Virus record (IMG/VR): IMGVR_UViG_3300043112_000199
Location: 1 to 37,172 of that record
Reading direction: 5' to 3' (one strand)
DNA length: 37,172 nucleotides
From: a virus
Taxonomy: Duplodnaviria > Caudoviricetes
A model generated the notes under the pieces. That model saw nothing but the letters and a program-made list of their open reading frames with translations. It did no database searches and was not told the DNA's origin. This document shows positions 1-28,620 of the stretch, one piece after another. The position numbers were made by a program, and so were the translations under genes. Position 1 is the stretch's first letter. Every line of letters starts with the position of its first letter.

Positions 1-144
1 TGGGAAACGGGCATTCATTCTTCCCTTAGCTGGTGATGCGTGGCGGGTTTACCGCCACAGGCAGGTCTTTCCCGGATAACGGGAAAAGTCCGATCTGCTT
101 GGCCCCGGGGCGCTGCCCCGAACCTTTTAGGAAGGAGAATTCCC

Positions 145-1104
145 ATGGGAAAATCCGACAGCCTCAAGTACGGGATCAACCGGGCAACCTTATCCGGCCC
201 AAAGTCGAAACAACACCGAATCCGTCAGACGGCACATCATTTCGTCAAGGTCTTGCGCCAGGCGAACATGGGTGCCCAGAAGTGGACCAAGGTGACCAAC
301 AAGCATTTCCAGCGCGTGGCGGACGTCATGCGTGCCGACGGTGTGGGCGACGGCAGGATTGCCGAAGTCTTCAGCGCCGCACGCCATATCTGCCGCGCTT
401 ACGAAAATGACCACATCAGTAAAAGCAACGCGACCTTCGGGGTCAGGCGCGGGTCCATCGCCAACGCGACGTCCCGTGCGGTCACCCCGGACGCCTTTCA
501 AGACACCCTGACCCGTATGCGGAACGACGCGTCGTATCCGCATGCGGGCCGGGCGGCGGCGCAGACCGAGTTGATGTATGAACTCGGACTACGGAGAGAA
601 GAAGCGGCCAAGGTAGACCTGCCCAACGACTGGGACCGGGAAAACCATAGCCTTCTCGTTCAGTACGGCACCAAAGGCGGCAGACCAAGAACCTTGCTCA
701 ACCTGTCGTCCCGGCAGGAAGCCGCCCTTGAACGGGCGCAGAAATACGTGTCCCCTTCCAATAGGAAAGGCATCAACAACCTCATGCCCGAGAATATGGG
801 CGATGAATGGTTACACCGGCTGGACTACGCAGCCAGAAAGCACGGCCTGACAGGTAGTGACGCCAGGGGCACCCTGCATGGTCTCCGTCATGAACGGTTC
901 CGGCAGATGTATGTGGACCACACCGGATTCGAGCCGCCGAACCAGCACGAAAGCGTTCAGGCATTTCACGAATCCGCCCAGGCAACGGCCGGGGACGACT
1001 GGCCCCGGCTCGATGACGAAGCACGCGACAAAATCGAAGTGACGGCAGGGCATTCGCCTGGCCGTCGGGACGTATCGAACGCCTATCTGGGCAGTTCCCG
1101 TTAG
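145..1104 (+). CDS. Tyrosine recombinase / integrase-domain protein
   Basis: Full catalytic set: LGLRREEA (R), GTKGG (K), HGLRH, AGH, AYLG (Y). AGGAG SD precedes ATG 145, in frame with ORF 40..1104. Confidence 0.85.
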   Translation: MGKSDSLKYGINRATLSGPKSKQHRIRQTAHHFVKVLRQANMGAQKWTKVTNKHFQRVADVMRADGVGDGRIAEVFSAARHICRAYENDHISKSNATFGVRRGSIANATSRAVTPDAFQDTLTRMRNDASYPHAGRAAAQTELMYELGLRREEAAKVDLPNDWDRENHSLLVQYGTKGGRPRTLLNLSSRQEAALERAQKYVSPSNRKGINNLMPENMGDEWLHRLDYAARKHGLTGSDARGTLHGLRHERFRQMYVDHTGFEPPNQHESVQAFHESAQATAGDDWPRLDDEARDKIEVTAGHSPGRRDVSNAYLGSSR

Positions 1105-1106
1105 CA

Positions 1107-1143
1107 GAAGCCCCGCCATTTTCGGCGGGGCTTCACTTTTTTT
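1107..1143 (+). terminator. Intrinsic terminator
   Basis: GAAGCCCCGCC-ATTTTC-GGCGGGGCTTC 11-bp stem, then ACTTTTTTT, just after the stop codon. Confidence 0.9.
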
Positions 1144-1314
1144 CATCTTTTTTTCTCCGCCCCCCTCTCCGACATTTGACTTTCACTTCTCTGGCGGTGT
1201 CAAACTGGCCTGTTGGCCGAGTATTGATGAGCAACCTCAACCGAAGGGGAAGTTGGAAACGGGTACGCGCAAGCGGTAGGAGGCTTTACGTTCCGTTCCT
1301 ATGAGAACCACAAA

Positions 1315-1518
1315 ATGACCGATGCACCGAAGCTTTTGACCATCAAGGAAGTCGCCTGCCTTTTGCGGGTACACCGTGCGACCGTTTCGCGCCTGATCGG
1401 GACTGGCGCCTTGCCCCATCTCGCGATAGGATCACGAAAGCTGGTTCTGGAAACAGACCTGCTGTCGTTCCTTGAAAATCGAAGAAGCTTGGCGGCGAAC
1501 AGTCCGAAGGGGGCATAG
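1315..1518 (+). CDS. Excisionase-like HTH protein
   Basis: 67 aa, LLTIKEVACLLRVHRATVSRLI pattern; immediately upstream of an integrase. Confidence 0.85.
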   Translation: MTDAPKLLTIKEVACLLRVHRATVSRLIGTGALPHLAIGSRKLVLETDLLSFLENRRSLAANSPKGA

Positions 1519-1521
1519 CTT

Positions 1522-2685
1522 ATGGCTACAGTCACTATCGCGACCCGTTCGCTGAAGAAAGGAAAAGCGTACGTTATCAACTTCACCAACCCGGATACGG
1601 GCAGGAAGGAATACCACAAGACGTACAGACGGAAAGACCTGGCTCAGGAAGAGGCCAATCGGCTTCGCACCCTGCTTGACAGCGGCAGGCTGCCGACCAA
1701 GGAAGGTCAGCAACCGAAGCAGCAGACCCTGCCCACTTTCGGGCAGGCTGCCCTGCTGTGTCAGGCCGAGTGGGATCGAAAGCTGGGGGAAGGCAAGATC
1801 GGCGAAGCAAGTTATGCCGGATACGGCTACCTGCTGGCCCCTGTCCTGAAGGAATGGAAACACACCCTGCTCCATGATCTCGACGAGGACACCATTCGGG
1901 ATTACCGCATCCGTATCGCCGAACAGACCAAGGCGAGGCTGGTGGCCAAAGGCGAAGCAGGCAAGAACTGCAACGTCCTGGCAAACCGCCGACTGTTTGT
2001 CATCAAACAGGTCTTCGCCCAGGCCGTGAAGCACGGTTTGATCGAAAAAGACATTGCGCGGGACATCCCCTACCTGTCGGAAAAGGCCAGTGAAAGGAAG
2101 AAGGCCCAGCAGCCGCTCGAAATCGAGAAGCTGCTTGCGGCGGCCCGTCAGCGCAGGGCGAAGCACTACCTTCCCCTGGTTATCCTGCTGGCGGTCGAGC
2201 ATGGGTGCAGCACCCAGGAAGTCCTTGGCCTTCGGTGGCCTGATGTGGACCTTGCGGAAAACCACATCACATTCCACCGTACCAAAAATGGTATGACCCG
2301 AACCCACCGGATCATGCCCCGCACCCGAGACGCTCTCTTGGCCCGGCTGGAGCATGTGACCCGGTACCGGGAAAAACGTGGTGTGAAGGTCAAGGGGGAT
2401 TACATTGTCGGCAACATGGACGGCACCCCGTTCAAGTCCATCAAGACCGCATGGAAAGGGCTGTGCAAGGACCATGACTTTGACGACCTGCACTTCCACG
2501 ACCACCGCCACACCTACTGCACGAACATGCTCAAGGCGGGCTGCACGCTCAAGGAGACCAACGTCATGATCGGCCACAAGACCCTGCGCATGACCGACCG
2601 CTACAGCCATCTGGAAGGTGTGCTGGAAGACGGCCCCCAGGACCGTCTGGCCACCTGTGGGGGGCCACTTAACTTGAGAAGCTAG
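1522..2685 (+). CDS. Tyrosine integrase; C-terminus probably replaced by prophage sequence
   Basis: LGLRWPDVD, RTKNG, FHDHRHT, IGH, DRYSH motifs. The first catalytic Arg position reads Ser (HGCSTQE). The last 9 codons fall in the putative phage left end. Confidence 0.85.
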   Translation: MATVTIATRSLKKGKAYVINFTNPDTGRKEYHKTYRRKDLAQEEANRLRTLLDSGRLPTKEGQQPKQQTLPTFGQAALLCQAEWDRKLGEGKIGEASYAGYGYLLAPVLKEWKHTLLHDLDEDTIRDYRIRIAEQTKARLVAKGEAGKNCNVLANRRLFVIKQVFAQAVKHGLIEKDIARDIPYLSEKASERKKAQQPLEIEKLLAAARQRRAKHYLPLVILLAVEHGCSTQEVLGLRWPDVDLAENHITFHRTKNGMTRTHRIMPRTRDALLARLEHVTRYREKRGVKVKGDYIVGNMDGTPFKSIKTAWKGLCKDHDFDDLHFHDHRHTYCTNMLKAGCTLKETNVMIGHKTLRMTDRYSHLEGVLEDGPQDRLATCGGPLNLRS

Positions 2686-2830
2686 GGAATGCCTAGGAAA
2701 CATGAGACGAATATGGGACTTTTGTAGGACTGACGCGGTATTTCGGTGGGGTTTTATTGCTTTTGGGGCGAATTTCTAACTTGAGAAAAAGCGCCGGCGA
2801 ATTGCCGGTTTTGGACAGGTAAGATGAGAA
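2670..2830 (+). repeat. Candidate transposase-binding sites of the left end (consensus tAAcwTGAGAa)
   Basis: TAACTTGAGAA 2670-2680, AAACATGAGAC 2698-2708, TAACTTGAGAA 2777-2787, TAAGATGAGAA 2820-2830, all in the same orientation. Confidence 0.7.
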
Positions 2831-2873
2831 AGGGCCAGGCGGTTATTTTGCCGCCTGGCCCTTTTTGTTTTTT
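2829..2873 (+). terminator. Intrinsic terminator near the left end, possibly bidirectional
   Basis: AAAGGGCCAGGCGG-N8-CCGCCTGGCCCTTT 14-bp stem followed by a T-rich tract. Confidence 0.8.
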
Positions 2874-3001
2874 GTCGGCAGCTACACACAGGGAAGCTGA
2901 TAATTCTCGCAAATCTTGTTGAGCTTACGTTCCGTTCTATGGCAGGGTTCGTCACCTCCCTCCATATCATCGAAACAGGCGTAACAGCTTGCCTTTCTTC
3001 G

Positions 3002-3508
3002 TCATGCGCTGTGTCGGAGATCGTCAGAGTTCTTGTCCTCTGGCGCGGCTCGAGCTGCCTTTAGTTCTTCATGGTATTCCTTCGCCATGGTTCTGGCGGT
3101 ATCCAGTTCGCCTTCTAGCTTGACGACCTGGACGTTCAGCTCACCGACCCGCACCTTTAGTTCCCCGTTTTCTTTCCAGAGTTGCCGGTTCTCCACCACC
3201 AAGTCCCGGTTCATTTCTCGCTCCCGGATCAGCTCGGCTTCAATGTCAGAGCTCTGATTAACCTCTGCCACTAAAGATGCAGAGGTGTCAGCCTCAGCAA
3301 GCTGCATAGGACCTTCCCCGAACAAAAGCCACTTCGGAGAGATGTGGAAATGGTTACAAATCTTCAACCCCACTTCAAAATTAGGCAGAGATTTGCCCAA
3401 TTCGTAATTCCTCAAGGTGTTCTCATTGATCCCTAAGGTGGAAGCAAGGGAAGATCGAGACTCTTTCCCTCTAAGATAGACCAGTCGTTCTGCTAATGAG
3501 TTGTGCAA
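3002..3508 (-). CDS. Prophage repressor (XRE HTH plus coiled-coil C-terminus)
   Basis: LAERLVYLRG..LASTLGINENTLRNYELGKSLP..ISPKWLLFGEG; divergent from the early operon at the left end. Start is TTG and uncertain. Confidence 0.8.
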   Translation of the reverse strand: MHNSLAERLVYLRGKESRSSLASTLGINENTLRNYELGKSLPNFEVGLKICNHFHISPKWLLFGEGPMQLAEADTSASLVAEVNQSSDIEAELIREREMNRDLVVENRQLWKENGELKVRVGELNVQVVKLEGELDTARTMAKEYHEELKAARAAPEDKNSDDLRHSA

Positions 3509-3650
3509 AAGTTTTACTCGCTAAGTTTTGCATTAACTTTTGCACGCCTCAAACCATGCAACACACTCAATATCCTGAAGATTGCATTTTTGCCTACAAT
3601 TTAAGTTTTGCGCGCATTTTGATTGGCGCAGCTCTCAAAAATAGGCAAAA
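3503..3650. promoter_or_regulatory. Immunity region operators / divergent promoters
   Basis: AT-rich. GTGCAAAAGTT 3503-3513 inverted at 3535-3545; TAAGTTTTGC at 3522 and 3602; TTTTGCCTA 3588-3596 inverted at 3642-3650. Confidence 0.6.
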
Positions 3651-3780
3651 GAGAGGCGTGGGCAGTAAACACAGGTAACACTCACATTGTCTACCTTAAT
3701 TGACTGCCTACAGGGGGTCAACATCCGGCCCCGCACCTGTTTCGGACATGAAGTTGAACCTCAGCGGACAAGAGCGACAC

Positions 3781-4206
3781 ATGCGGCAGTTATCCCTCTT
3801 CGACGACCCAAGCGCAGACCTGGCCATGCTGTTGGCCAGGGTCAAGAGCGCCATGCACCAGAGCGCCGCGAGTTGCGGGCTGTCGCGTGAGGAGATCGTC
3901 GACCGCATGAACGAGATCGCCAAGAGAGCCGGGGTGAGCCTGAGCCGGGGGAACGCCAAGAGCGTCACACTGGCCACGCTGGAAAAGTGGCTCAACCCCG
4001 CCAATACGGACCACGTGCCATCGCTTCTGGTGGTGAACGTGTTCTGCATGGCCACGAAGAGCACCGCGCCACTGCTGGTGATGCTGGATCTGCACGGGTG
4101 CGGGGTCATGACCCCCGAAGACAAACAATTGAGGGACTACGCCGAGGCGATCCTTGCCGAGCGTGACGCCCGCAAACGAAAAAAGCAGCTGGAGTTGAAG
4201 CTATGA
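3781..4206 (+). CDS. Early regulatory protein (putative DNA-binding)
   Basis: First gene of the early operon, LATLEKWLNP motif, ATGA-coupled to the next gene. Start could be 3748. Confidence 0.65.
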   Translation: MRQLSLFDDPSADLAMLLARVKSAMHQSAASCGLSREEIVDRMNEIAKRAGVSLSRGNAKSVTLATLEKWLNPANTDHVPSLLVVNVFCMATKSTAPLLVMLDLHGCGVMTPEDKQLRDYAEAILAERDARKRKKQLELKL

Positions 4207-4469
4207 ATAAATGCGCTGCCTTCGGGGCAGGTCGGCAACGTCAGCCCTGGCGGATTCGCGAGTTCCTCGATGAGCAGGGGCTGACTCAGGCTGACGTCGC
4301 CCGCGAACTCGGCAAGAATCGCAGCATTGTGAACCGAACTATCCGGGGCTCCATCAACAATCGCGACGTACTGAAACATCTGTACAGGCTTGGCTGCCCT
4401 CCCGAATACCTGAGCTTGCCCGATGACCTGAAAAAGTGGGCAAAACAGGAAGAAATGGTGGCCGCGTGA
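4203..4469 (+). CDS. Ner/Cro-like HTH regulator
   Basis: QGLTQADVARELGKNRSIVNRTIRG HTH, upstream of the transposase. Confidence 0.8.
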   Translation: MNKCAAFGAGRQRQPWRIREFLDEQGLTQADVARELGKNRSIVNRTIRGSINNRDVLKHLYRLGCPPEYLSLPDDLKKWAKQEEMVAA

Positions 4470-4744
4470 TGCTGTTGAGTCAGCAGGAAATCGCCGAGAT
4501 TTTAGACGGTGAGCCGTTAAAGGTTCCGGCGAAAACAGGAATAAAAGTAAATGACCGGTACTCCATCTGGGCAAAGGTCGGCGGCGATATGCAACTGATC
4601 ACCGTGGTCTGCAAGACTGCACCCTACCGGAGGAAGCTACGAAACGGCGGAACCGCCTGGTACGTGGACGTGTTCGGATACGGGGTTCGTCAGAGCGTGA
4701 ACGTCAAGAAGCTGCGGGAATTGCCCGCAAAAGGGAGAGAGTAA
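4469..4744 (+). CDS. Hypothetical early protein
   Basis: TGATG overlap upstream and TAATG overlap downstream. Confidence 0.6.
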   Translation: MLLSQQEIAEILDGEPLKVPAKTGIKVNDRYSIWAKVGGDMQLITVVCKTAPYRRKLRNGGTAWYVDVFGYGVRQSVNVKKLRELPAKGRE

Positions 4745-5079
4745 TGAAATCTCACACAGTACCATTCCACAAGGAAGAGGACTCTGGCCACAAAAACGGT
4801 TTTGACCCTGAGTCCCTTGATGAGCATCTCGACATCTTGGAATCCTTGCGGGAAACAGCACGGCCCGTGGTCGAAATGCCTGCCGACCAACGGGCCGTTG
4901 CTGGGATAGTTGCCATTCTCATGAGTGCCGATAATCCGGGACAGGTTCTCAGCGTAGCACGCTACTACCACAAGATTCTTAAAGGTGTTTTGCCATTGTC
5001 TCCGCAAGGGATTGCCCATCGAAGCAGTGACCACACTTCCGGTAGCCGCGCGACTCGTGCCTCTTCAAAGCACGAGTAA
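4744..5079 (+). CDS. Hypothetical early protein
   Basis: GGGAG SD and coupled start. The 3' part overlaps an antisense gene. Confidence 0.45.
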   Translation: MKSHTVPFHKEEDSGHKNGFDPESLDEHLDILESLRETARPVVEMPADQRAVAGIVAILMSADNPGQVLSVARYYHKILKGVLPLSPQGIAHRSSDHTSGSRATRASSKHE

Positions 5080-5227
5080 GATCACTACTATTTTCAACAA
5101 TGTACAGATTGTGAGCGTCAGATTCCATCTTACGGAGATTACAACTCCCGTTAATGGCTGACCCTAAGTGAATAGTTTTGGAATCTTCGTTCACAATAAC
5201 AAGATCATGGATGTTTTGATTCTTCAT
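4979..5227 (-). CDS. Small antisense moron protein, possible Zn-binding (H..C..CGHC)
   Basis: AGGAG SD before the ATG at 5227, low GC, GYRKCGHC motif. Confidence 0.6.
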   Translation of the reverse strand: MKNQNIHDLVIVNEDSKTIHLGSAINGSCNLRKMESDAHNLYIVENSSDLTRALKRHESRGYRKCGHCFDGQSLAETMAKHL

Positions 5228-5318
5228 TTCCCCGGCTCCTTTTGTTTGAAGTTGGATGCGTAGCAACAGGAAAACCGATAGCAGAAGGGGCCGGGGCCTA
5301 CAACCGAGTTACACCGCT

Positions 5319-7412
5319 ATGAAAGACGCTTACACCACAAAAGAACTCACCATCCTGCTTGGGGCAGCTCCGAGCACGATCAGCCGGAGGGCCAAGCGTG
5401 AAGGCTGGCCGTCACGTCCTCGTCAGGCCCGTGGTGGAGGCTTTGAGTGGCTTGCTGCGAACCTGCCCGAAGACGTCCGGGCCGCAATCTCCCTGCACGA
5501 GACGAGAGCCGAGACGCCGGCCCTGCCCGATGAGAACGTAGTTATCCCTGACTGGGCGTACAAGGTTGGCATGGCTCGGTTCCGTCTGGTCAACGAGTGG
5601 CGACTTGCCGTGAAAAAGAGCAAGACGACCAAGGGCAAGGCCACGGCCGCATTTCTGACAGCCTTCAACTCCGGCCAGCTGCTCGCAAGCGAGTATGAAA
5701 AACTGGGCGAGGTTTCGGATAAGACCCTGTATCGCTGGGACAAGAAGCTCCGCGACAACGGCGAGGATTATCAGGTGCTTTGTGACCGGCGCGGCAAGTG
5801 GTCCAAAGGCGGCCGGAAGGGACTCGGCCAAATCGGACCTGAAGCAGAAAAGATCTTTCTCGGGTGCTGGCTGACACCGAATCGACCCAGCATCAAGCTT
5901 GCGTACGAGGCCACCAAATCCATCCTGACAAAGCACGGCCACAAGGCTCCCAGCTACAAGACTGTGGCTCGTTTTGCGAAGCGCTTCGATGAACACCATC
6001 ACGACCTGGTTGTGCTCAAGCGTGAGGGCGAGAAGGCTCTCAAGGACAAGGTCGGCCCTTACATTGCCCGTAACGACAAGGTCCTTTCCGTGGGCGACGT
6101 CCTCTTTTGCGACGGGCACGTACTCAACTTCCGTTGTCTGCACCCGACGACCGGAAAACCGTTCCGCCCCACGCTTATCTGTTGGTTTGATTGGCGCTCC
6201 CGCATGCCGGTTGGTTGGGAGATCATGCCCACCGAGGACACTATCGCGATCAGCTCGGCGCTTCATATGGCCATAGGAACGCTCGGGCAATACCCCCGCT
6301 GCGTCTACATCGACAACGGCAAGGCGTTCCGCTCCAAGTTTTTCAGCGAAGCTGATGCCGACTTCGGCGAACTCAACGGACTGTATGCCCGCCTCGGCAT
6401 CGCCGTACAGTACAGCCGGCCATATGAAGCGCGTACCAAGATCGTGGAGCGCTGGTTTCGAACCTTCGACGAGCAGTGCCAGCGCCTGCTGCCGAGCTAC
6501 ATAGGCAACTGCATCGACAATAAGCCCGCATGGATGAACCGCAACGAGAAGTACCACGAAGCGGCGCACAATGAATGGACGCCGACCTTGCGGGATGCCT
6601 CCGAAATTTTCCGTCTATTCGCAACCTGGTACGGACAGCAGGCGCATCGAGGCGTTGACAATCAGAAGCCTCTCGAACTGCTTCAGGCGGGTACAGGGGA
6701 CGGCGTGGATATGGGCGAGCTGGACCGGCATTTCCTCTTCCGCCAAAAGATCACGCCTCGTCGATGCGGATTCACCATCGGCGGCGTCCGCTTTGAATCC
6801 GATGCCCTGTACGGCCTGAACAAGCCGGTCATGGCCATGTTCAGCTGGGCCGACATGAGCGAAATCCACTTGCACACGCTCGAAGGGGAACGACTCGGAA
6901 CGGCTCGTCCCACGGTAGCGCTCCATCCGCTTGCCAACCAGTTCGGCAACGAGCTTGACCTGCAGAAGATCAAGGAAGCCAACAAGCGCCAGCGCAAGCT
7001 CAAAAATACGACCATGCAGCTGGCCAATGCCTTTGATGGTGACGTTGGTGAAAGCGCCTTCCAGCAACTGCCTTGGATGCAGCAGCAGACAGCTCCGCTC
7101 AGGGCGGTTGTCCAGCCCAAGAAGACAAAGCCGGAACTGACCCTGGACCAAGCGGAAGCAGCACGACTCGAAGAGGTACGCAGCAAGGTCAAAGCCCTGC
7201 CCTCGGCCCCGGATAGGCCGGACTTCTTTGCCTCGGAATACGAGCGCTACGAGTGGTGCTTCATGCAGTCCGAAATGCACGGCCACTGCTTGGATGAAAA
7301 CGACATTTCCTTCATGCGCGCCTACGAGGCCTCCGAAGAATACCGGACGGCCACGGGCAGACGCTTCGAGCAACTGAGGCTTGCATACGAGAACAAGAAA
7401 ATCGCGAGGTAA
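5319..7412 (+). CDS. MuA-like DDE transposase
   Basis: N-terminal Mu-type HTH (YTTKEL..ISRRAKREGW); catalytic CDGH, YIDNGKAF, VERWF; about 697 aa. Confidence 0.93.
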   Translation: MKDAYTTKELTILLGAAPSTISRRAKREGWPSRPRQARGGGFEWLAANLPEDVRAAISLHETRAETPALPDENVVIPDWAYKVGMARFRLVNEWRLAVKKSKTTKGKATAAFLTAFNSGQLLASEYEKLGEVSDKTLYRWDKKLRDNGEDYQVLCDRRGKWSKGGRKGLGQIGPEAEKIFLGCWLTPNRPSIKLAYEATKSILTKHGHKAPSYKTVARFAKRFDEHHHDLVVLKREGEKALKDKVGPYIARNDKVLSVGDVLFCDGHVLNFRCLHPTTGKPFRPTLICWFDWRSRMPVGWEIMPTEDTIAISSALHMAIGTLGQYPRCVYIDNGKAFRSKFFSEADADFGELNGLYARLGIAVQYSRPYEARTKIVERWFRTFDEQCQRLLPSYIGNCIDNKPAWMNRNEKYHEAAHNEWTPTLRDASEIFRLFATWYGQQAHRGVDNQKPLELLQAGTGDGVDMGELDRHFLFRQKITPRRCGFTIGGVRFESDALYGLNKPVMAMFSWADMSEIHLHTLEGERLGTARPTVALHPLANQFGNELDLQKIKEANKRQRKLKNTTMQLANAFDGDVGESAFQQLPWMQQQTAPLRAVVQPKKTKPELTLDQAEAARLEEVRSKVKALPSAPDRPDFFASEYERYEWCFMQSEMHGHCLDENDISFMRAYEASEEYRTATGRRFEQLRLAYENKKIAR

Positions 7413-7414
7413 CC

Positions 7415-8107
7415 ATGCGGCGAGACATTTTCATCGAAACAGGAAACGTAGCCAAGTTTCGCAAGGCGCTCGGCGTCCTGAGCGACACCGAGCGCGGCAG
7501 GCCCGGCATCGGGGTCATCCAAGGCGAAGCAGGACGCGGCAAGACCATGGCTGCCACCGAGTGGCACACCACCAATGGCGGCATCTTCCTGCGCGTCATG
7601 GAAGGCTGGAGCCAGTTCAGTTTTTTGCAGGCGCTGGCCTACGAGGTCTCCGGGGATAGGCCGGGAAACACGAACCGTTGCCGGAACCGCATCATGGACG
7701 CCCTGAGTTCGTTTCCGCAGCCCATCATCGTTGACGAGGCCGACCGACTGCACATGGCGCGCATCGAAGACTTGCGGGACGTACATGACATGACCGGCTG
7801 CCCGGTCGTCCTCATCGGCGAGGAAGGGTTTTACCCCAAGCTGCATGCCCGCCGGCGGGTCCAGTCTCGCGTCACGCAGGTGGTTGAATTCGATCCGGTC
7901 AGCGCCGAGGACGTCATGCTGTTCGCCCTGCAGACGGCTTCCCTCGACGTTACGCCCGAGGCCTGCCACAAGCTGGCAACTCTCGCAAAAGGCAGCTTCC
8001 GCGTGATTTACAGCTTCACGCTGCAACTTGAAGACTTCGCCAAGGCCCAAGGCAGCAACGACATCGACACCGCAGTAATTGAAAAGCTGCGGATCGGGAG
8101 GGCCTAA
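7415..8107 (+). CDS. MuB-like AAA+ transposition ATPase
   Basis: Walker A GEAGRGKT, Walker B IIVDEAD; directly follows the transposase. Confidence 0.92.
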   Translation: MRRDIFIETGNVAKFRKALGVLSDTERGRPGIGVIQGEAGRGKTMAATEWHTTNGGIFLRVMEGWSQFSFLQALAYEVSGDRPGNTNRCRNRIMDALSSFPQPIIVDEADRLHMARIEDLRDVHDMTGCPVVLIGEEGFYPKLHARRRVQSRVTQVVEFDPVSAEDVMLFALQTASLDVTPEACHKLATLAKGSFRVIYSFTLQLEDFAKAQGSNDIDTAVIEKLRIGRA

Positions 8108-8736
8108 TGCGGTCACCTGACATGGACAAATTGCGCGGTGTTGTCATCGGACTCAGCGATGGCGGCCAGAAGAAGCTGAGTAACGCGCTGATCTTCCGGG
8201 CGCTCGCCCTCGAAACCGAGCCTGAAAAGGCGCGTGTTCGCCGCCAGCTCGGCACGCTGGTCAAACAGAGCGAACTCGAACGGATCGAACCGGGGGTATA
8301 TCGCTACAATCCCAAGGCGCAGAGCCGCCGCAAGGGCGAAGGATATATCCGCATGTGGCGGGCGGTCCGGGCCATGAAGGGCGCGTACACCATCGCCGAC
8401 ATCTCTGCCGTCGCGCACATGGATGCATCCACCGTAAGCAAATACATGAAACACCTGGACGAACTGGGCTTTGTGCGACGCAACGGCAAGCAGGGAAAGA
8501 GCATGCTCTACTCCACGACGCCCAAAGGCCGTGAACAACGCGAGACACCGTATCCGCCGTTGGCCATTCGTGATCCGTTCGCGGATGAACGAGCCGCCAT
8601 GTCCCGGCTGGCGCGCGTGTTTTTCGAAAAGGATCTGTACACCGATTCGGCACGCAAAGCGGTGCTGAAGGAGTGCGGGACCATAATCAAACGTTTTGAC
8701 ACTCAACATGAGAAAGGAGGCCATCATGAAAATTAA
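8107..8736 (+). CDS. Winged-helix DNA-binding protein
   Basis: TIADISAVAHMDASTVSKYMKHLDELGFVRR wHTH; TAATG-coupled to MuB. Confidence 0.75.
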   Translation: MRSPDMDKLRGVVIGLSDGGQKKLSNALIFRALALETEPEKARVRRQLGTLVKQSELERIEPGVYRYNPKAQSRRKGEGYIRMWRAVRAMKGAYTIADISAVAHMDASTVSKYMKHLDELGFVRRNGKQGKSMLYSTTPKGREQRETPYPPLAIRDPFADERAAMSRLARVFFEKDLYTDSARKAVLKECGTIIKRFDTQHEKGGHHEN

Positions 8737-8983
8737 GGAGACGGCACGCAGGAACGGCAACGCAGGATGGGCCGGACCGGACGGCCCCATGAGCCGCAAA
8801 ATATTTGCGCAGGCTGTGGCCATCAAGGACACCGCGCAGCGGATCGTGGACCACCCCGCCGTGGTCGAAGAGCTGAACCAGTATGCAAACACGCTCATCC
8901 GCGAGTCCGAGCGTGTGGCGAATCTCGAAACCGCCCGTCCCGTCGTGCTGTTCTGCACCGGACACAGGGCCACGATCAATTAG
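8726..8983 (+). CDS. Hypothetical protein
   Basis: AGGAGG SD before ATG 8726. Confidence 0.6.
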   Translation: MKIKETARRNGNAGWAGPDGPMSRKIFAQAVAIKDTAQRIVDHPAVVEELNQYANTLIRESERVANLETARPVVLFCTGHRATIN

Positions 8984-8993
8984 AGGGATCGGA

Positions 8994-9593
8994 ATGAGAG
9001 ACGGTTACATGGAAGATGCCCAGGGGCGTTTGGTGCCCCTGGACCAGGTGAAAGAGATCGACAGAGAACGCGACACATTGGTCATGGAGCTGGTAGGACA
9101 GGTCAAGGCTATGCGGAGCGCCATGCGCGATCTCAAGGGACAGATCATGGGCGAGATCGAAGCATTTGTCCAGCTGAGCGCCGAACAGCATGGCGCTCAG
9201 CTCGGAGGCAAGAAAGGCAACGTGACGCTCGTGTCCTACGATGGGCGCTACAAGGTCGTGCGTCAGATTTCCGAGCATCTGTCCTTTGACGAGCAGCTGC
9301 AGGCGGCAAAGGCTCTCATCGACGAATGCATCAAGGAATGGACCGAGAATTCCCGCACCGAACTGCAGGTGCTCATCAACGATGCGTTTCAGGTGGACAA
9401 GGAAGGCAAGATCAACACGGGCCGGGTACTCGGCCTGCGTCGCCTTGACATCAAGGACGACCGCTGGAAACGCGCCATGGACGCAATATCCGACAGCCTG
9501 CAGGTGACGGGTACCAAGGCGTATGTGCGAATTTACGAGCGTCAGGAAGACGGATCATACAAAGCGTTGCCGCTGGATATGGCCGCGCTGTAG
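8994..9593 (+). CDS. DUF3164-like Mu-phage protein
   Basis: GYMEDAQGRLVP..GGKKGNVTLVSYDG..W.RAMDAISDS..KAYVRIYER; usual position after MuB. Confidence 0.85.
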   Translation: MRDGYMEDAQGRLVPLDQVKEIDRERDTLVMELVGQVKAMRSAMRDLKGQIMGEIEAFVQLSAEQHGAQLGGKKGNVTLVSYDGRYKVVRQISEHLSFDEQLQAAKALIDECIKEWTENSRTELQVLINDAFQVDKEGKINTGRVLGLRRLDIKDDRWKRAMDAISDSLQVTGTKAYVRIYERQEDGSYKALPLDMAAL

Positions 9594-9659
9594 GTCGCAT
9601 TGGGTGCGCAAACCATCGGAGTGAAAAGCAAAACCGCGCGTATGCGCAAGGAGATAGTC

Positions 9660-9938
9660 ATGAACAAGAGCGAATTGGTAACGGCCGTAGCCGCAAAATG
9701 CGAGGACCTGACCATGAGCGACGTGGAACAGGCGGTAAACGCCATGCTTGAAACCACGACGGAGGCTCTGGCCGCCGGTAAGGAGGTGAAGCTGAAAGGG
9801 TTCGGCGGCTTCGAAATCAAGAAACGCGATGCCTATCAGGGCCGCAATCCCCGCACGGGTGAGCCCGTGGCGATCCCGGCCAGCAAGGTGGTCAAATTCA
9901 AGCCTGCCAAGGCGCTGAGGGAGTCCGTGAAGAGCTAA
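9660..9938 (+). CDS. hup: HU/IHF-family DNA-binding protein
   Basis: MNKSELV..GFGGFEIKKR..GRNPRTGE..KFKPAKALRE; AAGGAG SD. Confidence 0.95.
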   Translation: MNKSELVTAVAAKCEDLTMSDVEQAVNAMLETTTEALAAGKEVKLKGFGGFEIKKRDAYQGRNPRTGEPVAIPASKVVKFKPAKALRESVKS

Positions 9939-9939
9939 A

Positions 9940-10001
9940 GCGAAACCGCCCTGCGGGGCGGTCGTCGGAGCGTGGCGGCTCCGGCCTGATGAGCAGCCGA
10001 C
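9940..10001 (+). ncRNA. Type II hammerhead ribozyme
   Basis: GC-GAAA(9942-45)-CCGCCC/TGCG/GGGCGG-TC^ (cleavage after C9963), then GTCGGAGC/GTGGCG/GCTCCGGC, CTGATGA (9986-92), GC. All core nucleotides and three stems are present. Confidence 0.92.
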
Positions 10002-10038
10002 GTGCTTTTGAAAAATGATCAGCAGGAGACAGAGCAAT

Positions 10039-10323
10039 ATGAATTTTTGGGAAGTGGTGCCGGAACGTACCCGACAAGAAATTATTCCAGACAGTGAAAT
10101 TGAAGCTGTCCATGCAAACGCCCAGTTTGGCGACATGCCCAAACGTGAGGTTGTGGATCGGGGTGTCTTGAAATGCGCCTTCGGATTTCATCAGGGCCAT
10201 ACGGTACGGCACATCCTGCACGGCCACGGCCTGATTCAAGAAAGGTACGGCGAGGGATACCGACTCACCATCAAGGGCCGAGAATACTTTTCCTCTGTCT
10301 GGAAAGTCGAAAAACGCAACTGA
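10039..10323 (+). CDS. Hypothetical phage protein
   Basis: AGGAG upstream; first gene after the ribozyme. Confidence 0.65.
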   Translation: MNFWEVVPERTRQEIIPDSEIEAVHANAQFGDMPKREVVDRGVLKCAFGFHQGHTVRHILHGHGLIQERYGEGYRLTIKGREYFSSVWKVEKRN

Positions 10324-10341
10324 TCCGCAAAGAACAGACGG

Positions 10342-10362
10342 AAAAACCCGGCATGCGCCGGG
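10342..10362 (-). terminator. Terminator of the antisense two-gene cassette
   Basis: Minus strand reads CCCGGC-GCAT-GCCGGG-TTTTT. Confidence 0.65.
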
Positions 10363-10392
10363 CTTCGATCTTTGAAAATTGAATGGTGTTGG

Positions 10393-10545
10393 TTAGCCGG
10401 ATTTCTTTTTCTGCGCTGCGATCCACGCTTCCATTGCCTCAACCATCGCTTCCCCGATGGTTTTGCCCTGAAGCATGGCCGCCGCTTTGAAGCGACGGCG
10501 CAGCTCTTCGGGGATGTTCTTTATCTGCCAAGGTGTTGTGGACAT
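10393..10545 (-). CDS. Ribbon-helix-helix (Arc/CopG-like) regulator
   Basis: 50 aa, WQIKNIPEELRRRFKAAAMLQGKTIGEAMVEAMEAWI. Confidence 0.8.
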   Translation of the reverse strand: MSTTPWQIKNIPEELRRRFKAAAMLQGKTIGEAMVEAMEAWIAAQKKKSG

Positions 10546-10549
10546 TGCT

Positions 10550-10762
10550 CTACACCCGGCCGTCAATGATTGCCTGAATTTCATTGAGAAGTCGGGCGGC
10601 GTCGTAGGAATCGTCTTCAATAGAAGTGAACTCGTCTCGTTCGATTTCAAAGTTTGCGCCATTCCAATTCACATCGCGGAGAGCCACGTTTTCAAGATGC
10701 TCTTCGATGCGGGTTACGGTTTCGTCGTTCACGTCGTAGCTGATGTTGATGATGGTTGCCAT
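10550..10762 (-). CDS. Small acidic hypothetical protein
   Basis: AAGGAG SD before ATG 10762; 70 aa, D/E-rich. Confidence 0.7.
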   Translation of the reverse strand: MATIINISYDVNDETVTRIEEHLENVALRDVNWNGANFEIERDEFTSIEDDSYDAARLLNEIQAIIDGRV

Positions 10763-10806
10763 GAGGGGTCTCCTTGTTTGGTTTGTTGCTTCCCTTTGTT
10801 GAGTAC

Positions 10807-10835
10807 AACCTAGCACTACCAGCACTACCAATCAA
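10807..10835 (-). promoter_or_regulatory. Sigma70 promoter with tandem operator
   Basis: TTGATT-17 nt-TAGGTT; the spacer is made of two GGTAGTGCT 9-mers. Confidence 0.7.
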
Positions 10836-10921
10836 CACTTTTCTTCATTTTTTTATTCATTTGTTTTCAGGGATTTAAACGTAAACCACGAAAAGCTTAG
10901 AACGCAACAACAGGAGACACC

Positions 10922-11260
10922 ATGGAACTTAGAGTCAAAAGCGGTTTTACAGAACAAAGTTACCGGGAACATCGTCGTAGGTTCCTGCACCAATCCGATA
11001 ACCATCGTCGTGCATCGGGTCGCACGGTCCGTCAGCTTTTGAATACGGCCATCACCATATCCAAAAATCCGGGACAGCCTCTGGTCTTGGCTGCTCACAG
11101 TTACGATTACGCCAAGGAGCTGTTTTGGAAGTTGAAAAATGTCTGCGACGACTTGGGAATACCGTTTCCCAGAGTAGTCCATCTTTCCAATGGCAAGGAT
11201 ATAGATCAGCTTCAAGGAATCGGCACGCATATTATGCATCAAGATCACTTTCGCAACTGA
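10922..11260 (+). CDS. Hypothetical protein
   Basis: AGGAG SD; RRASGRT resembles a degenerate P-loop. Confidence 0.6.
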   Translation: MELRVKSGFTEQSYREHRRRFLHQSDNHRRASGRTVRQLLNTAITISKNPGQPLVLAAHSYDYAKELFWKLKNVCDDLGIPFPRVVHLSNGKDIDQLQGIGTHIMHQDHFRN

Positions 11261-11289
11261 TCGCAGAACAGCGTTCAAAGGAAGTCGCA

Positions 11290-11745
11290 ATGTCTGAATA
11301 CACGACCATCACAGATTTTCCGGACTATGAGATCAACCGATCAGGATCGGTGCGCAGGGCCGACGGTACCTGCTTGGGCTCCCCTGTGTCCCCCAAATAC
11401 AACACAAACGGCGCGGAATATGTTTCGCTTCGTCGGGATGGACGGACAAGACAGCGGTGCATCAACGTGCTGCTGGTGGAGACTTTCGGCCCAGGGGCGG
11501 CACAACAGGCCGGATACCCCGAGCCGGACATGCGGCGCGTACAGGTTCAGCGCGAACTGGCCGAGCGCCCTCGCTCCGGCAAAAGCCTCGGGCGAGATGG
11601 GTACCGTAAATACACTCGGCGCTGTCACGACTGTGGCAAGCCGACCAGCAACTATCGCTGCGAAGAGTGCTGGATACGCATTCGCGGCTTCGGCGCGTCC
11701 GAGGCTCAGAATTACCACTTTGATCCGTACAGCGTACATGAATAA
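11290..11745 (+). CDS. NUMOD4-like domain plus C-terminal Cys4 zinc finger
   Basis: ITDFPDYEINRSGSVR..YVSLRRDG..VLLVETF; CHDC..CEEC. Confidence 0.65.
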   Translation: MSEYTTITDFPDYEINRSGSVRRADGTCLGSPVSPKYNTNGAEYVSLRRDGRTRQRCINVLLVETFGPGAAQQAGYPEPDMRRVQVQRELAERPRSGKSLGRDGYRKYTRRCHDCGKPTSNYRCEECWIRIRGFGASEAQNYHFDPYSVHE

Positions 11746-11947
11746 CCCGAGACAGAGGCCTAGGACCTGCACCGGATGCAGACACCTGCCGCCAACCTCA
11801 GAGGGCTGGTACGGATACAACGGCTGGGATTACAGCACGTGCCCGGTTACGGGAATCACCCTGCAAATCGACAGGGACGGCACCGCAACTCCGTTGGAGA
11901 ACTGCGATCAAAAGGAGATCCGCCATGGCAATGCCAAGCCGGAATAA
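11738..11947 (+). CDS. Small Cys-rich hypothetical protein
   Basis: CTGCRH..CPVTG..C; overlaps both neighbours in operon fashion. Confidence 0.55.
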   Translation: MNNPRQRPRTCTGCRHLPPTSEGWYGYNGWDYSTCPVTGITLQIDRDGTATPLENCDQKEIRHGNAKPE

Positions 11948-12386
11948 GATGATAGCCAAGATCAAGATAGGCCAGAAGCAACTCGGTCTGGATGAAGACA
12001 CCTACCGCACCATGCTGGACGACAGGTACGGCAAAAGCTCGGCCGCAAAGCTTTCTCTCAAGGAGCTGGCCGACTGCATCCACCATTTGGAGAACCTCGG
12101 TGTCGGCTTCACGTCCTCGCCTTCCACGAAGCAAAGGGGTCCGAAAGATTTCTACGCCGTTCCTGACAGCGTTCCCTTCGCCCGCCAGAAACGTTGGATC
12201 GCATCCATGTGGTACGCGCTGGGATGGAACATGTCCGGACTGGACTCCAGAAGCGCCAAACAGTTCGGCGTGGAACGGTTCATCTGGATCAACGATCAGA
12301 CTCATCTGCAGACCCTGGCCAAGGACATGATCAACCGTTGCCGTAACAAGGGCATAGACCCCGACGATGCAGAACCTGCAAGCTGA
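11925..12386 (+). CDS. gemA: GemA (Mu gp16 / DUF1018) family protein
   Basis: IAKIKIGQKQLGLDEDTYRTML...GKSSAAKLS signature; AAGGAG SD. Confidence 0.88.
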   Translation: MAMPSRNKMIAKIKIGQKQLGLDEDTYRTMLDDRYGKSSAAKLSLKELADCIHHLENLGVGFTSSPSTKQRGPKDFYAVPDSVPFARQKRWIASMWYALGWNMSGLDSRSAKQFGVERFIWINDQTHLQTLAKDMINRCRNKGIDPDDAEPAS

Positions 12387-12669
12387 GATCGAGCGCCGTT
12401 TCGGTACGGTGTATCGCTTTTGCCGGGAGCATACGGAGCTCAACCGAGCCACTGTCTACATGATCCTGGCCGGAACATACGGCGGCAACACAGAGCGACA
12501 GGAAAAACGGATCAGGGAAGCACTCGGAGACAACAGTAAGGAAAGGCAAGTTTTTGAAGCCATCAAACAAGCAGCCTGCGCCCGATGCCACTTCGGGCAA
12601 CCCTGTTCCCGGTGCGACTCGCTGTTCAAAACCCAGACAGACGCAGCCATGAAAGTTTTCTCAAGTTAG
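12367..12669 (+). CDS. HTH-like protein with Cys cluster
   Basis: LNRATVYMILAGTY; CARC..CSRC. Confidence 0.65.
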   Translation: MQNLQAEIERRFGTVYRFCREHTELNRATVYMILAGTYGGNTERQEKRIREALGDNSKERQVFEAIKQAACARCHFGQPCSRCDSLFKTQTDAAMKVFSS

Positions 12670-12687
12670 CTGACCCGGAGGTGGACA

Positions 12688-13125
12688 ATGACAGCCAAGC
12701 TTCTGAAAGAATTCGCCGACCTCTACGCCAAGGGGTTTCGTCCGTATACTGGCGAGATCACCAGTGAGGTTTATGAACGGCTTGGATGTGCGAAGCCGGA
12801 GAGGGCGTACTGGATAGTATACTGGCCGATCCTGCACTGCTTCGGCTGCTCCAGACGCTGCACACCCAAGACTCCTGAAGGCTTTCAGGTCGTTTTACCG
12901 ACCGAGGGTGTCACACGAGTAAAATTCGATATCACTCCGGCCCAGATGCTCCGGTCAAAATCCTTACTCCGGGCCGACGAAGCGGCCTACTGCCTCGCTG
13001 TCAGCCCGAGGCAGGTATATGCCTTGGCCGCTGAAGGAAAGCTTGATCGACATATAGACAAGCCGTTTCGAGTTACTGTAGAAAGCGTTGTTCAAGAGCT
13101 GAATCGCACAGAAATGGGAGTATGA
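12688..13125 (+). CDS. HTH regulator, candidate late-gene activator
   Basis: GGAGG SD; C-terminal LLRADEAAYCLAVSPRQVYAL HTH; lies near the end of the non-structural region, where Mu has gene C. Confidence 0.65.
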   Translation: MTAKLLKEFADLYAKGFRPYTGEITSEVYERLGCAKPERAYWIVYWPILHCFGCSRRCTPKTPEGFQVVLPTEGVTRVKFDITPAQMLRSKSLLRADEAAYCLAVSPRQVYALAAEGKLDRHIDKPFRVTVESVVQELNRTEMGV

Positions 13126-13709
13126 TCATGCAAACGACATTTGTTATTTTAGGTTTTATTTCGCTTTTAGCAGCACTTGTGGGGCTTCTTAAGCCCGGTT
13201 TGGTTACCAGCTTCCTTGCTCCGAAACACCGAACCCGTCTCAAAGCCTTTGGAGGATATGTTGCCATATTCCTCGTCGCGGTATTCATGGTTGGAACTAC
13301 TGCTAACAACAAGTCCAGTCAGGCGACACTAAGCAACCAGCCGGGAACGAACCAAATGACCTCCACCTCACCGAAAAACGATAATACAAAGCCTGAAGTT
13401 CAAGAAGCATCTATCGCCGAAAACAAAGAAGCGCTCCGTAACCTGCTCGACATGCTTCTGAGCTTTAAGGACGATCCCGAGTTTCACCAGAAGGGTTTTG
13501 GTGCAGGATTGCCGTACACGCATACTTGGTTGAAAACTTTAAACGAAATATCGCAAGAAATGACGGTAAAAAACGGATATCCACTCGGCTTGGCAACGGC
13601 ACCGAATGACTTACGCCAGCTAGGCATGGAATACATGCGAAGCCAAGGACGAGAGAATCAATTCACGAGGGATTTCCGGCAATTCATAGAAGAAGCCCTT
13701 ACACAATAG
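13122..13709 (+). CDS. Membrane-anchored moron protein
   Basis: Two N-terminal hydrophobic segments, a low-complexity linker and a soluble domain; lower GC. Confidence 0.7.
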   Translation: MIMQTTFVILGFISLLAALVGLLKPGLVTSFLAPKHRTRLKAFGGYVAIFLVAVFMVGTTANNKSSQATLSNQPGTNQMTSTSPKNDNTKPEVQEASIAENKEALRNLLDMLLSFKDDPEFHQKGFGAGLPYTHTWLKTLNEISQEMTVKNGYPLGLATAPNDLRQLGMEYMRSQGRENQFTRDFRQFIEEALTQ

Positions 13710-13736
13710 CTGTATCTACTCACCTTGACTGAAAAT

Positions 13737-13764
13737 AGCGCCTCACACCGAGGCGCTTTTTTTT
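13737..13764 (+). terminator. Intrinsic terminator closing the early/middle region
   Basis: AGCGCCTC-ACACC-GAGGCGCT-TTTTTTT. Confidence 0.9.
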
Positions 13765-13812
13765 GCACCATTCGCGTGGATTCCTGCGATACTGTAACAA
13801 TGCCGATACTAT
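13765..13812 (+). promoter_or_regulatory. Putative activator-dependent late promoter (lysis)
   Basis: GCAC-N2-TTCGC-N5-TTCC-N22-TACTAT; same architecture at 28621-28668; no canonical -35. Confidence 0.6.
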
Positions 13813-13901
13813 TCTCCCTGTATCCACCGAGTTAGCCGCTCGGACATCTCGCATAACGGCGGGGTCGGGCCGCATCCGGCCCCGCCATACAGGGAGTGAC
13901 C

Positions 13902-14402
13902 ATGAAACAGCATACCCGCATCGTCATCGTGCGGACCGACACCGGGCCTGAAGGCACGTTCGGCCGCATGATCCTGCCCGGAGGCCGCGACCTCGTCTGC
14001 GCCGAATTGCCCTGGCGCGACAACCGCACGAGCAAATCCTGCATTCCACCCGGCACGTACGCGTGCTCCATCGAAACATCCCCCACCTACGGCGTGTGTC
14101 CCCATGTCCACGACGTGCCCGGCCGCACCGCGATCCTGATCCATCCCGGCAACTGGGCCGGTGACGTTGATGCCGGACTGCATAGCGATTCCGAAGGCTG
14201 CATCCTGCCCGGCAAGGGGGTCGGCCACTATCCGCCCAAGGGTTTTGCGTCCCAGCGAATGGTCAGCAACTCGCAGCGCGCCTGGGAACTCATCATGGAC
14301 GAACTGAAAACCTCCGGCATCGAGGCCGGCGATCACTTCGAGCTGCAGATCCTCGACGCTACAGGCGAAGCCGGCAGGGGGTGGAACGATGGGATTCGGT
14401 GA
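13902..14402 (+). CDS. Putative endolysin (DUF5675-like)
   Basis: GTFG..ELPWRDN..SCIPPGTY..VPGRTAILIHPGN..SEGCILPG; first late gene. Confidence 0.8.
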   Translation: MKQHTRIVIVRTDTGPEGTFGRMILPGGRDLVCAELPWRDNRTSKSCIPPGTYACSIETSPTYGVCPHVHDVPGRTAILIHPGNWAGDVDAGLHSDSEGCILPGKGVGHYPPKGFASQRMVSNSQRAWELIMDELKTSGIEAGDHFELQILDATGEAGRGWNDGIR

Positions 14403-19204: not shown

Positions 19205-19403
19205 TGGATGCGACAATGCCCAGCGCACGCAGGCCCTGTACCTGCAAACCGCGCTTGAGAATCGGATGACGCGGTCCCACGGGGCGTCACGTCATGCCTG
19301 CGAAGAGTGCGGCGAGATCATACCGGAAGCCCGCCGGCGAGCCGTCCCCGGCGTACGTCTCTGCATAGCCTGTCAGGAAGAAGCCGATGCCCGTCACTAT
19401 TGA
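19197..19403 (+). CDS. TraR/DksA C4 zinc-finger protein
   Basis: MADGCDNAQ..CEECGEIIPEARRRAVPGVRLCIACQE; GGAGG SD. Confidence 0.88.
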   Translation: MADGCDNAQRTQALYLQTALENRMTRSHGASRHACEECGEIIPEARRRAVPGVRLCIACQEEADARHY

Positions 19404-28530: not shown

Positions 28531-28620
28531 TTTACCTCTCCAGATTATCATCATGCATACTAATTTTGCTTATCACTTTTGCTATCATTATTAGCCGCTA
28601 GCTTCTACCTCAAACTTTAA

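What the first reader, a model, noticed from the sequence alone, without database searches (positions are those of the whole stretch)
9940..10001. Complete type II hammerhead ribozyme 1 nt after the HU stop codon
Seen: GAAA 9942-9945; stem III ACCGCCC/GGGCGGT; cleavage triplet GUC 9961-9963; 8-bp stem I GTCGGAGC/GCTCCGGC; core CTGATGA 9986-9992; stem II GC/GC (9940-41/9993-94). The loop I TGGC can pair with the 3' tail GCCG (9996-9999) as a pseudoknot. Known: this is the hammerhead consensus, and hammerheads occur in phage intergenic regions. Inference: self-cleavage splits the early polycistron between the transposition/HU genes and the accessory genes, leaving a 3' hairpin upstream and a 5'-OH downstream, which would tune their stabilities separately.
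Basis: partly seen in the sequence, partly recalled or inferred. Interest (0 to 1): 0.8.

Follow-up and report, generated by a model that had tools for sequence, protein, structure and literature searches.

The report
Known-type hammerhead in Mu-like prophage
A complete self-cutting hammerhead RNA motif sits one base after a gene's stop codon in a Mu-like phage and likely cuts the phage's early message in two; it is almost identical to copies already shown to cut in Desulfovibrio vulgaris, so it is real but ordinary.

Summary
Observation confirmed. 9938-10002 (+) matches Rfam Hammerhead_II at 74 bits (cut-off 37); every core base, three stems and the pseudoknot are present. The window is a Mu-like transposable phage, likely of Desulfovibrionaceae. 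The predicted 3' product matches D. vulgaris loc 1 and loc 2 at 36 of the first 37 bases. Both cut in vitro, and loc 1 gave paired cut ends in cells (PMC8782182). Cutting after C9963 is therefore very likely, though untested here. The layout stop codon-ribozyme-ribosome site is general: 80 of 137 relatives have a gene's stop within -1..+2 bases (2.4% at random places). The position is not tied to HU, flanking genes vary widely, and 26 of 43 related records lack it. Best reading: constitutive cutting between genes, leaving both pieces with hairpin ends. This idea has been in print since 2011 (PMC3088659), and this scan already noted the same layout on other DNA. Its purpose remains untested. 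New member of a known kind; interest 0.2.

The parts
9940..9999 (+). Type II hammerhead ribozyme with loop I/3' tail pseudoknot (Rfam envelope 9938-10002)
9940..9941 (+). Stem II, 5' strand (pairs 9993-9994)
9942..9962 (+). GAA core bases and stem III hairpin (9945-9951/9956-9962); would end the upstream product
9963..9964 (+). Predicted cleavage site after C9963 of the GUC triplet
   Evidence: consensus; same junction as the 5'/3' fragments listed for D. vulgaris loc 1-3
9964..9985 (+). Stem I hairpin, loop 9972-9977; would start the downstream product
9986..9992 (+). Catalytic core CUGAUGA (G9988 = G5)
9996..9999 (+). Pseudoknot tail pairing 9973-9976
9660..9938 (+). HU-family DNA-binding protein gene; stop codon 9936-9938 lies 1 nt before the ribozyme
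   Evidence: Pfam PF00216 E 2.5e-33
10024..10028 (+). Shine-Dalgarno-like AGGAG, 10 nt before ATG 10039
   Evidence: sequence
10039..10323 (+). Downstream 94-aa gene of an unnamed family (335 relatives); predicted winged-helix-like fold, function unknown
   Evidence: no Pfam hit
10342..10365 (.). Hairpin after the 94-aa gene; reads as a terminator on the minus strand (U run), weak on plus
8994..9593 (+). DUF3164 gene of the Mu-like early region
   Evidence: PF11363 E 1e-86
5256..8107 (+). MuA-like transposase and MuB-like ATPase genes upstream on the same strand
11925..12386 (+). GemA gene closing the accessory early region
   Evidence: PF06252 E 6e-18

Best explanation
This is a complete type II hammerhead ribozyme motif lying between the HU stop codon and the ribosome-binding site of the next gene of a Mu-like phage, and it likely cuts the early message constitutively after C9963. 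Shown here: the motif, its position, the general stop-ribozyme-ribosome-site layout, and near identity to tested copies. Inferred: the upstream piece would keep the HU stop plus a 25-nt tail ending in the stem III hairpin and a 2',3'-cyclic phosphate. The downstream piece would start with a 5'-OH on the stem I hairpin, followed by the ribosome site of the 94-aa gene. Only 2 bp of stem II and core contacts hold the pieces together, so the cut would be effectively one-way. The likely effect is that each piece decays on its own schedule and that an accessory gene gets the same protected 5' end whatever lies upstream, as engineered RiboJ insulators do.
For: Rfam 74 bits. The 3' fragment equals D. 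vulgaris loc 1 and loc 2 at 36 of the first 37 nt, the one difference being variable core position 7; the 5' part differs only by 3-4 extra bases in the stem III tip and in the bases before stem II (compared by eye). All three D. vulgaris copies cut in vitro; loc 1 and 3 gave paired 2',3'-cP/5'-OH peaks in cells; heat shock did not change activity. Layout: long-ORF stop within -1..+2 nt in 80 of 137 copies against 2.4% of 5809 random places; 43 of 49 stop triplets at gap 0 close an open frame of 40 codons or more; ATG 5-24 nt after the tail in 103 of 135; 21 of 32 in a second, model-found set. Covariation in stems I, III and the pseudoknot (122 of 127 Watson-Crick at the free pseudoknot pair, 0 of 10000 shuffles). 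Both changes seen in one related strain keep pairing (C9976T, G9984A). Flanking genes fall in 59 clusters of 86 upstream and 61 of 87 downstream. First base of the 3' product is predicted paired in 102 of 136. One record has 24 copies, nearly one per gene.
Against: Cleavage of this copy was not tested. The ribozyme is dispensable in many relatives: present in 17 of 43 DUF3164-bearing viral records and 6 of 13 near-complete ones; no other Rfam ribozyme in 25 of the ribozyme-less loci. Cleavage is not predicted to change access to the downstream ribosome site here (9.45 vs 9.51 kcal/mol) or consistently in relatives (median -0.43; 43 easier, 24 harder of 121). Competing folds exist in this copy: core paired with 10003-10022 gives -37.5 against -30.7 kcal/mol without the pseudoknot; it ranks 25th of 137 for core occlusion. 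In D. vulgaris most reads covered only the ribozyme itself, so stabilised long products were not shown. Tight spacing may be plain phage compactness.
Confidence: 0.6

Rival explanations
1. Cutting is gated by translation: a ribosome terminating at the HU stop would cover stem II, GAAA and the start of stem III, so the ribozyme would fold and cut mainly when HU is poorly translated.
For: Gap of -1..+2 nt in 80 of 137 puts the 5' third of the ribozyme under the footprint of a terminating ribosome (footprint size recalled, no call).
Against: 57 of 137 have larger gaps or no such stop; ribosomes leave stops quickly (recalled); compactness explains the gap; activity in D. vulgaris did not change with heat shock.
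Confidence: 0.14
2. The main value is at DNA level: the conserved 60-bp unit is a shared homology arm through which accessory genes are swapped between prophages, and cutting merely keeps such swaps harmless.
For: Near-identical ribozymes with unrelated flanks; contigs in run X8 stop matching right after 9998; in run X3 one contig has 3 of its 5 differences in 9882-9984 and at most 2 in the next 2.6 kb; arrays of one gene per ribozyme.
Against: Catalytic core and GUC are kept (131 of 137 GUC; the core was partly fixed by my search pattern); stems covary rather than stay identical; another swap in the same region (10530-10769, runs X4 and X6) has no ribozyme at its ends.
Confidence: 0.12
3. The cut is a decay or shut-off signal that destabilises one product, as glmS cleavage does in Bacillus (recalled; only the reference title was seen).
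For: Reads in D. vulgaris were short and confined to the ribozyme, and the authors raise low stability for loc 1 and 2.
Against: Both new ends are predicted hairpins; engineered hammerheads before a ribosome site are described as raising stability in E. coli; the same authors attribute short reads partly to the method.
Confidence: 0.09
4. This particular copy misfolds with its own 3' flank and cuts poorly; it is a passenger.
For: Competing helices 9986-9995/10003-10022 and 9963-9968/9997-10002.
Against: Not an outlier among 137 relatives; 0 of 63 differences from L003 while HU differs at 15 of 279 (weak, the downstream gene differs at only 5 of 285); near-identical tested copies are active.
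Confidence: 0.05

Closest known systems
D. vulgaris Hildenborough type II hammerheads loc 1-3 (Olzog et al. 2021, PMC8782182; section 7 read in full, supplement passages and Table S2 rows seen, figures not seen)
   Same: 36 of the first 37 nt of the 3' fragment equal loc 1 and loc 2; same GUC site, stem I and pseudoknot; described as near phage-like and DNA-binding genes; cut in vitro and in cells.
   Different: Stem III is 3-4 nt shorter here, core position 7 is U not C, and the 3' flank differs; single copy in this window. The paper did not test a function.
Type II hammerheads with pseudoknot, Rfam RF02276 (Perreault et al. 2011, PMC3088659; passages and first part of Discussion read)
   Same: Same permutation, 2-bp stem II, loop I/tail pseudoknot, prophage setting; mRNA processing into operon- or gene-length pieces proposed there.
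   Different: None in structure. The stop codon abutting stem II was not in the passages I read.
Self-cleaving ribozymes enriched near Mu-like phage genes (stated in Eckert et al. 2023, PMC10085705, passages; Weinberg et al. 2019, PMC6765202, passages; the 2015 primary paper was not held)
   Same: Same genomic setting; reason stated to be unknown; different stabilities or translation of pieces suggested.
   Different: Nothing found that sets this window apart.
Cultured Mu-like phages with an unannotated copy: Rhodovulum phage RS1, Rhodobacter phage RC1, Pelagibaca phage vB_PeaS-P1, Pseudomonas phage YMC12/01/R960
   Same: Ribozyme directly after a TGA stop and before the next gene; after HU in RS1 and vB_PeaS-P1.
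   Different: 78-83% identity over the match; other hosts and downstream genes; not annotated as RNA in the three records opened.
RiboJ insulators (engineered; PMC7536230, passages)
   Same: Hammerhead before a ribosome site that standardises the 5' end; what the element likely works like.
   Different: Engineered, placed after promoters, with an added hairpin; not a family this element belongs to.

Membership tests
Hammerhead type II (RF02276) | Core CUGANGA, GAAA and NUH cleavage triplet | tested here: met
   9986-9992, 9942-9945, GUC 9961-9963
Hammerhead type II (RF02276) | Stems I and III closed by loops, chain ends in stem II | tested here: met
   pair list; folds
Hammerhead type II (RF02276) | Pseudoknot of 4 or more bp between loop I and the 3' tail | tested here: met
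   4 bp here; 135 of 137 relatives have 4 or more; covariation
Hammerhead type II (RF02276) | Score above the family gathering threshold | tested here: met
   74 vs 37 bits
Hammerhead type II (RF02276) | Mg-dependent self-cleavage giving 2',3'-cyclic phosphate and 5'-OH | not testable with these tools
   Shown for near-identical D. vulgaris copies, not for this copy
Mu-like phage-associated ribozymes | Lies in the early region of a transposable phage | tested here: met
   MuA, MuB, DUF3164, HU, GemA, Mu portal
Tandem ribozyme pairs flanking single genes | A second ribozyme nearby | tested here: not met
   One Rfam hit in the window; none further at E<=1 in 2600-14000; classes outside Rfam not covered
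Intercistronic mRNA-processing element | Co-transcribed with both flanking genes and alters product stability | not testable with these tools
   Same strand, no terminator-like site called between 7221 and 12393 on plus; transcript not observed

The most novel reading that the evidence does not exclude
Type II hammerheads are a portable stop-cut-ribosome-site punctuation module of Mu-like and other phages. One 60-nt unit caps both mRNA pieces with hairpins, is gated by the ribosome terminating on the upstream gene, and doubles as the DNA homology arm through which accessory genes are shuffled, reaching 24 units in one record.
Probability: 0.15. Interest if true: 0.65.

Novelty: new member of a known kind. 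Interest (0 to 1): 0.2.

Why it matters
The motif itself adds little: near-identical copies are published and shown active. What stays open is why Mu-like phages keep these ribozymes, a question the field states as unanswered. The survey here sharpens the layout (stop codon abutting stem II) and names cultured phages that carry an unannotated copy after HU or another early gene, where a single core mutation would test function directly. The uncultured phage in this window is a poorer test object than those.

Tried and rejected
Second ribozyme in the window: none. Replacement by another Rfam ribozyme class in relatives lacking it: none in 25 loci; more ribozyme-less loci were held and not scanned. 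Expression: no RNA holder listed, which says nothing either way. A base-by-base view of further strains over the ribozyme is missing; one search hides 180 rows. HU-specific function: rejected. A regulatory anti-ribozyme fold special to this copy: not supported, rank 25 of 137 (the alternative helix was mis-indexed there and corrected). A translation switch on the downstream gene: no predicted change. Function of the 94-aa protein: no Pfam family, one weak PHROG of unknown function, atlas neighbours unnamed, good model (pLDDT 90.6) with only non-significant winged-helix hits in PDB (best E 0.55) and one uncharacterised phage protein (E 4e-5). Paper searches for the stop-abutting layout gave nothing on point (listings only); the library lacks most subscription papers and the 2015 Weinberg paper, so absence from print is not shown. 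No earlier scan note on look-alike DNA.

Full report
Observation. A structure descriptor found it once in the window and never in 150 simulated windows. Folding energy alone is not unusual (z -1.27).

Setting. The window is a Mu-like transposable phage: repressor, MuA (5256-7412), MuB (7415-8107), DUF3164 (8994-9593), HU (9660-9938), GemA (11925-12386), Mu portal and contractile-tail genes. The record is linear, estimated 67% complete. The closest named DUF3164 relatives (73%) include a Desulfovibrionaceae and a Desulfovibrio assembly, so the host is likely of that family (inference). In a sample of that family 40 of 121 genomes have a type II hammerhead, 39 above the cut-off. The ribozyme starts one base after the HU stop. 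Downstream lie AGGAG (10024-10028) and a 94-aa gene (10039-10323) with 335 relatives and a predicted winged-helix-like fold of unknown function, then a hairpin that reads as a terminator for two oppositely oriented genes. No second ribozyme was found.

It is nearly a published, tested ribozyme. Olzog et al. (PMC8782182; section 7 in full, supplement passages and table rows; figures not seen) tested three D. vulgaris type II hammerheads near phage-like genes. All cut during in vitro transcription; loc 1 and loc 3 gave adjacent cyclic-phosphate and 5'-OH peaks in cells, loc 2 only the 5'-fragment peak at low read counts; heat shock made no difference. Compared by eye with Table S2, the window's predicted 3' fragment equals loc 1 and loc 2 at 36 of the first 37 bases, differing at the variable core position 7, and the 5' fragment differs by 3-4 bases in the tip of stem III and in the bases before stem II. 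I put the chance that this copy cuts after C9963 at about 0.93.

Relatives. Of 43 viral records carrying a DUF3164 relative, 17 have the ribozyme and 4 of these have two; among 13 near-complete records 6 have it; 4 further records were not held, and two positives are near-copies of this phage. A pattern scan returned 133 stretches of an estimated 1100. My descriptor found 163 distinct copies in the loci then held; 26 were dropped as near-duplicates or for short upstream context, leaving 137. Caveats: the pattern fixed stem II and the core, and about a dozen copies come from one array. In this set a long reading frame stops within -1..+2 bases of stem II in 80 of 137, 3-10 bases in 32, further in 21, none in 4; at random places the first class is 2.4%. 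An ATG opens a long frame 5-24 bases after the tail in 103 of 135. A set found by the covariance model in 30 loci of the host family gave 21 of 32. In the 127 copies with this stem I length, stems I and III and the pseudoknot covary; the pseudoknot pair not fixed by the pattern is Watson-Crick in 122 of 127 and no shuffle of 10000 reached that (relatedness not corrected). Flanking genes, scored only in loci of 1200 bases or more, fall in 59 clusters of 86 upstream (HU largest, 13) and 61 of 87 downstream; most have no known function. A related strain has two changes in the ribozyme, both keeping their pair. Five named cultured phages and one unnamed record match the 81-base query (9 records); in the three opened the ribozyme directly follows a TGA stop and is unannotated.

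Mechanism. Shown: motif, position, layout, near identity to active copies. Inferred: cutting leaves the HU message with its stop codon, a stem III hairpin and a cyclic phosphate, and gives the next gene a 5'-OH on the stem I hairpin (first base predicted paired in 102 of 136). The type II order puts a hairpin on both new ends. That RNase E needs a 5' monophosphate and that 3' exonucleases need a single-stranded tail is recalled knowledge; engineered hammerhead insulators are described as standardising 5' ends and raising stability (PMC7536230, passages). I give constitutive processing 0.6, ribosome-gated cutting 0.14, a mainly DNA-level shuffling role 0.12, a decay signal 0.09, an inactive copy 0.05.

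Against. The element is absent from many relatives and not replaced by another Rfam ribozyme in 25 loci scanned. Cutting is not predicted to change ribosome access here or consistently elsewhere. Competing folds are within reach of the active one in a model blind to pseudoknots. The D. vulgaris reads did not show long stable products. I did not control the stop-to-ribozyme gap against other intergenic elements, so compactness remains a sufficient explanation.

What is known. Perreault et al. 2011 (PMC3088659; passages and Discussion part 1) described type II hammerheads, the pseudoknot, prophage clusters flanking genes and processing into shorter mRNAs. Weinberg et al. 2019 (PMC6765202, passages) names different stabilities or translation efficiencies as a suggestion needing work. 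Eckert et al. 2023 (PMC10085705, passages) states that the strongest gene association is with Mu-like phages and that the reason is unknown. A type II hammerhead is also annotated in Oleidesulfovibrio alaskensis G20 (PMC11124144, passages). I did not find the stop-abutting layout in print, with the library limits noted; earlier unchecked notes of this scan report it on other DNA, seen after my own counts. Supplements of the 2011 paper were not read and may already show it.

Verdict. Real, very likely active, a new member of a known kind in its best-known setting. Interest 0.2.

Noticed in passing
G044:C1:9932-17520 (L134, L235), minus strand: 24 type II hammerheads in 7.6 kb of a 57-kb viral record; 22 of the 23 gaps hold a reading frame (26-334 aa) running from a ribosome site in one ribozyme's tail to a stop abutting the next. 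G045 has 9 and G046 has 8 matches. Similar arrays were noted earlier by this scan.
   Followed up: partly
window 10393-10831, minus strand: Two small oppositely oriented genes inserted in the early region, one ribbon-helix-helix-like by eye (recalled motif); in runs X4 and X6 238 bases (10530-10769) are replaced by 304 others (count given for the joint).
   Followed up: partly
window 9882-9998: Mosaic boundary at or near the ribozyme: one X3 contig has 3 of 5 differences before 9985 and at most 2 in the next 2.6 kb; X8 contigs stop matching at 9998.
   Followed up: partly
window 27631-28554, minus strand: AbiJ_NTD4 plus DUF7014 gene (anti-phage defence-like moron) between tail genes.
   Followed up: no
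window 40-2685: Two tyrosine integrase genes left of the repressor, unusual for a Mu-like phage; perhaps flanking host or other element DNA.
   Followed up: no
window 19387-20664: Mu gpF-like head protein fused to a PBECR2 nuclease-like domain.
   Followed up: no
   Followed up: no
L008 near 6211: A relative with GUAA in place of GAAA, a very long stem III and an extra base after the core, still 47.8 bits.
   Followed up: no
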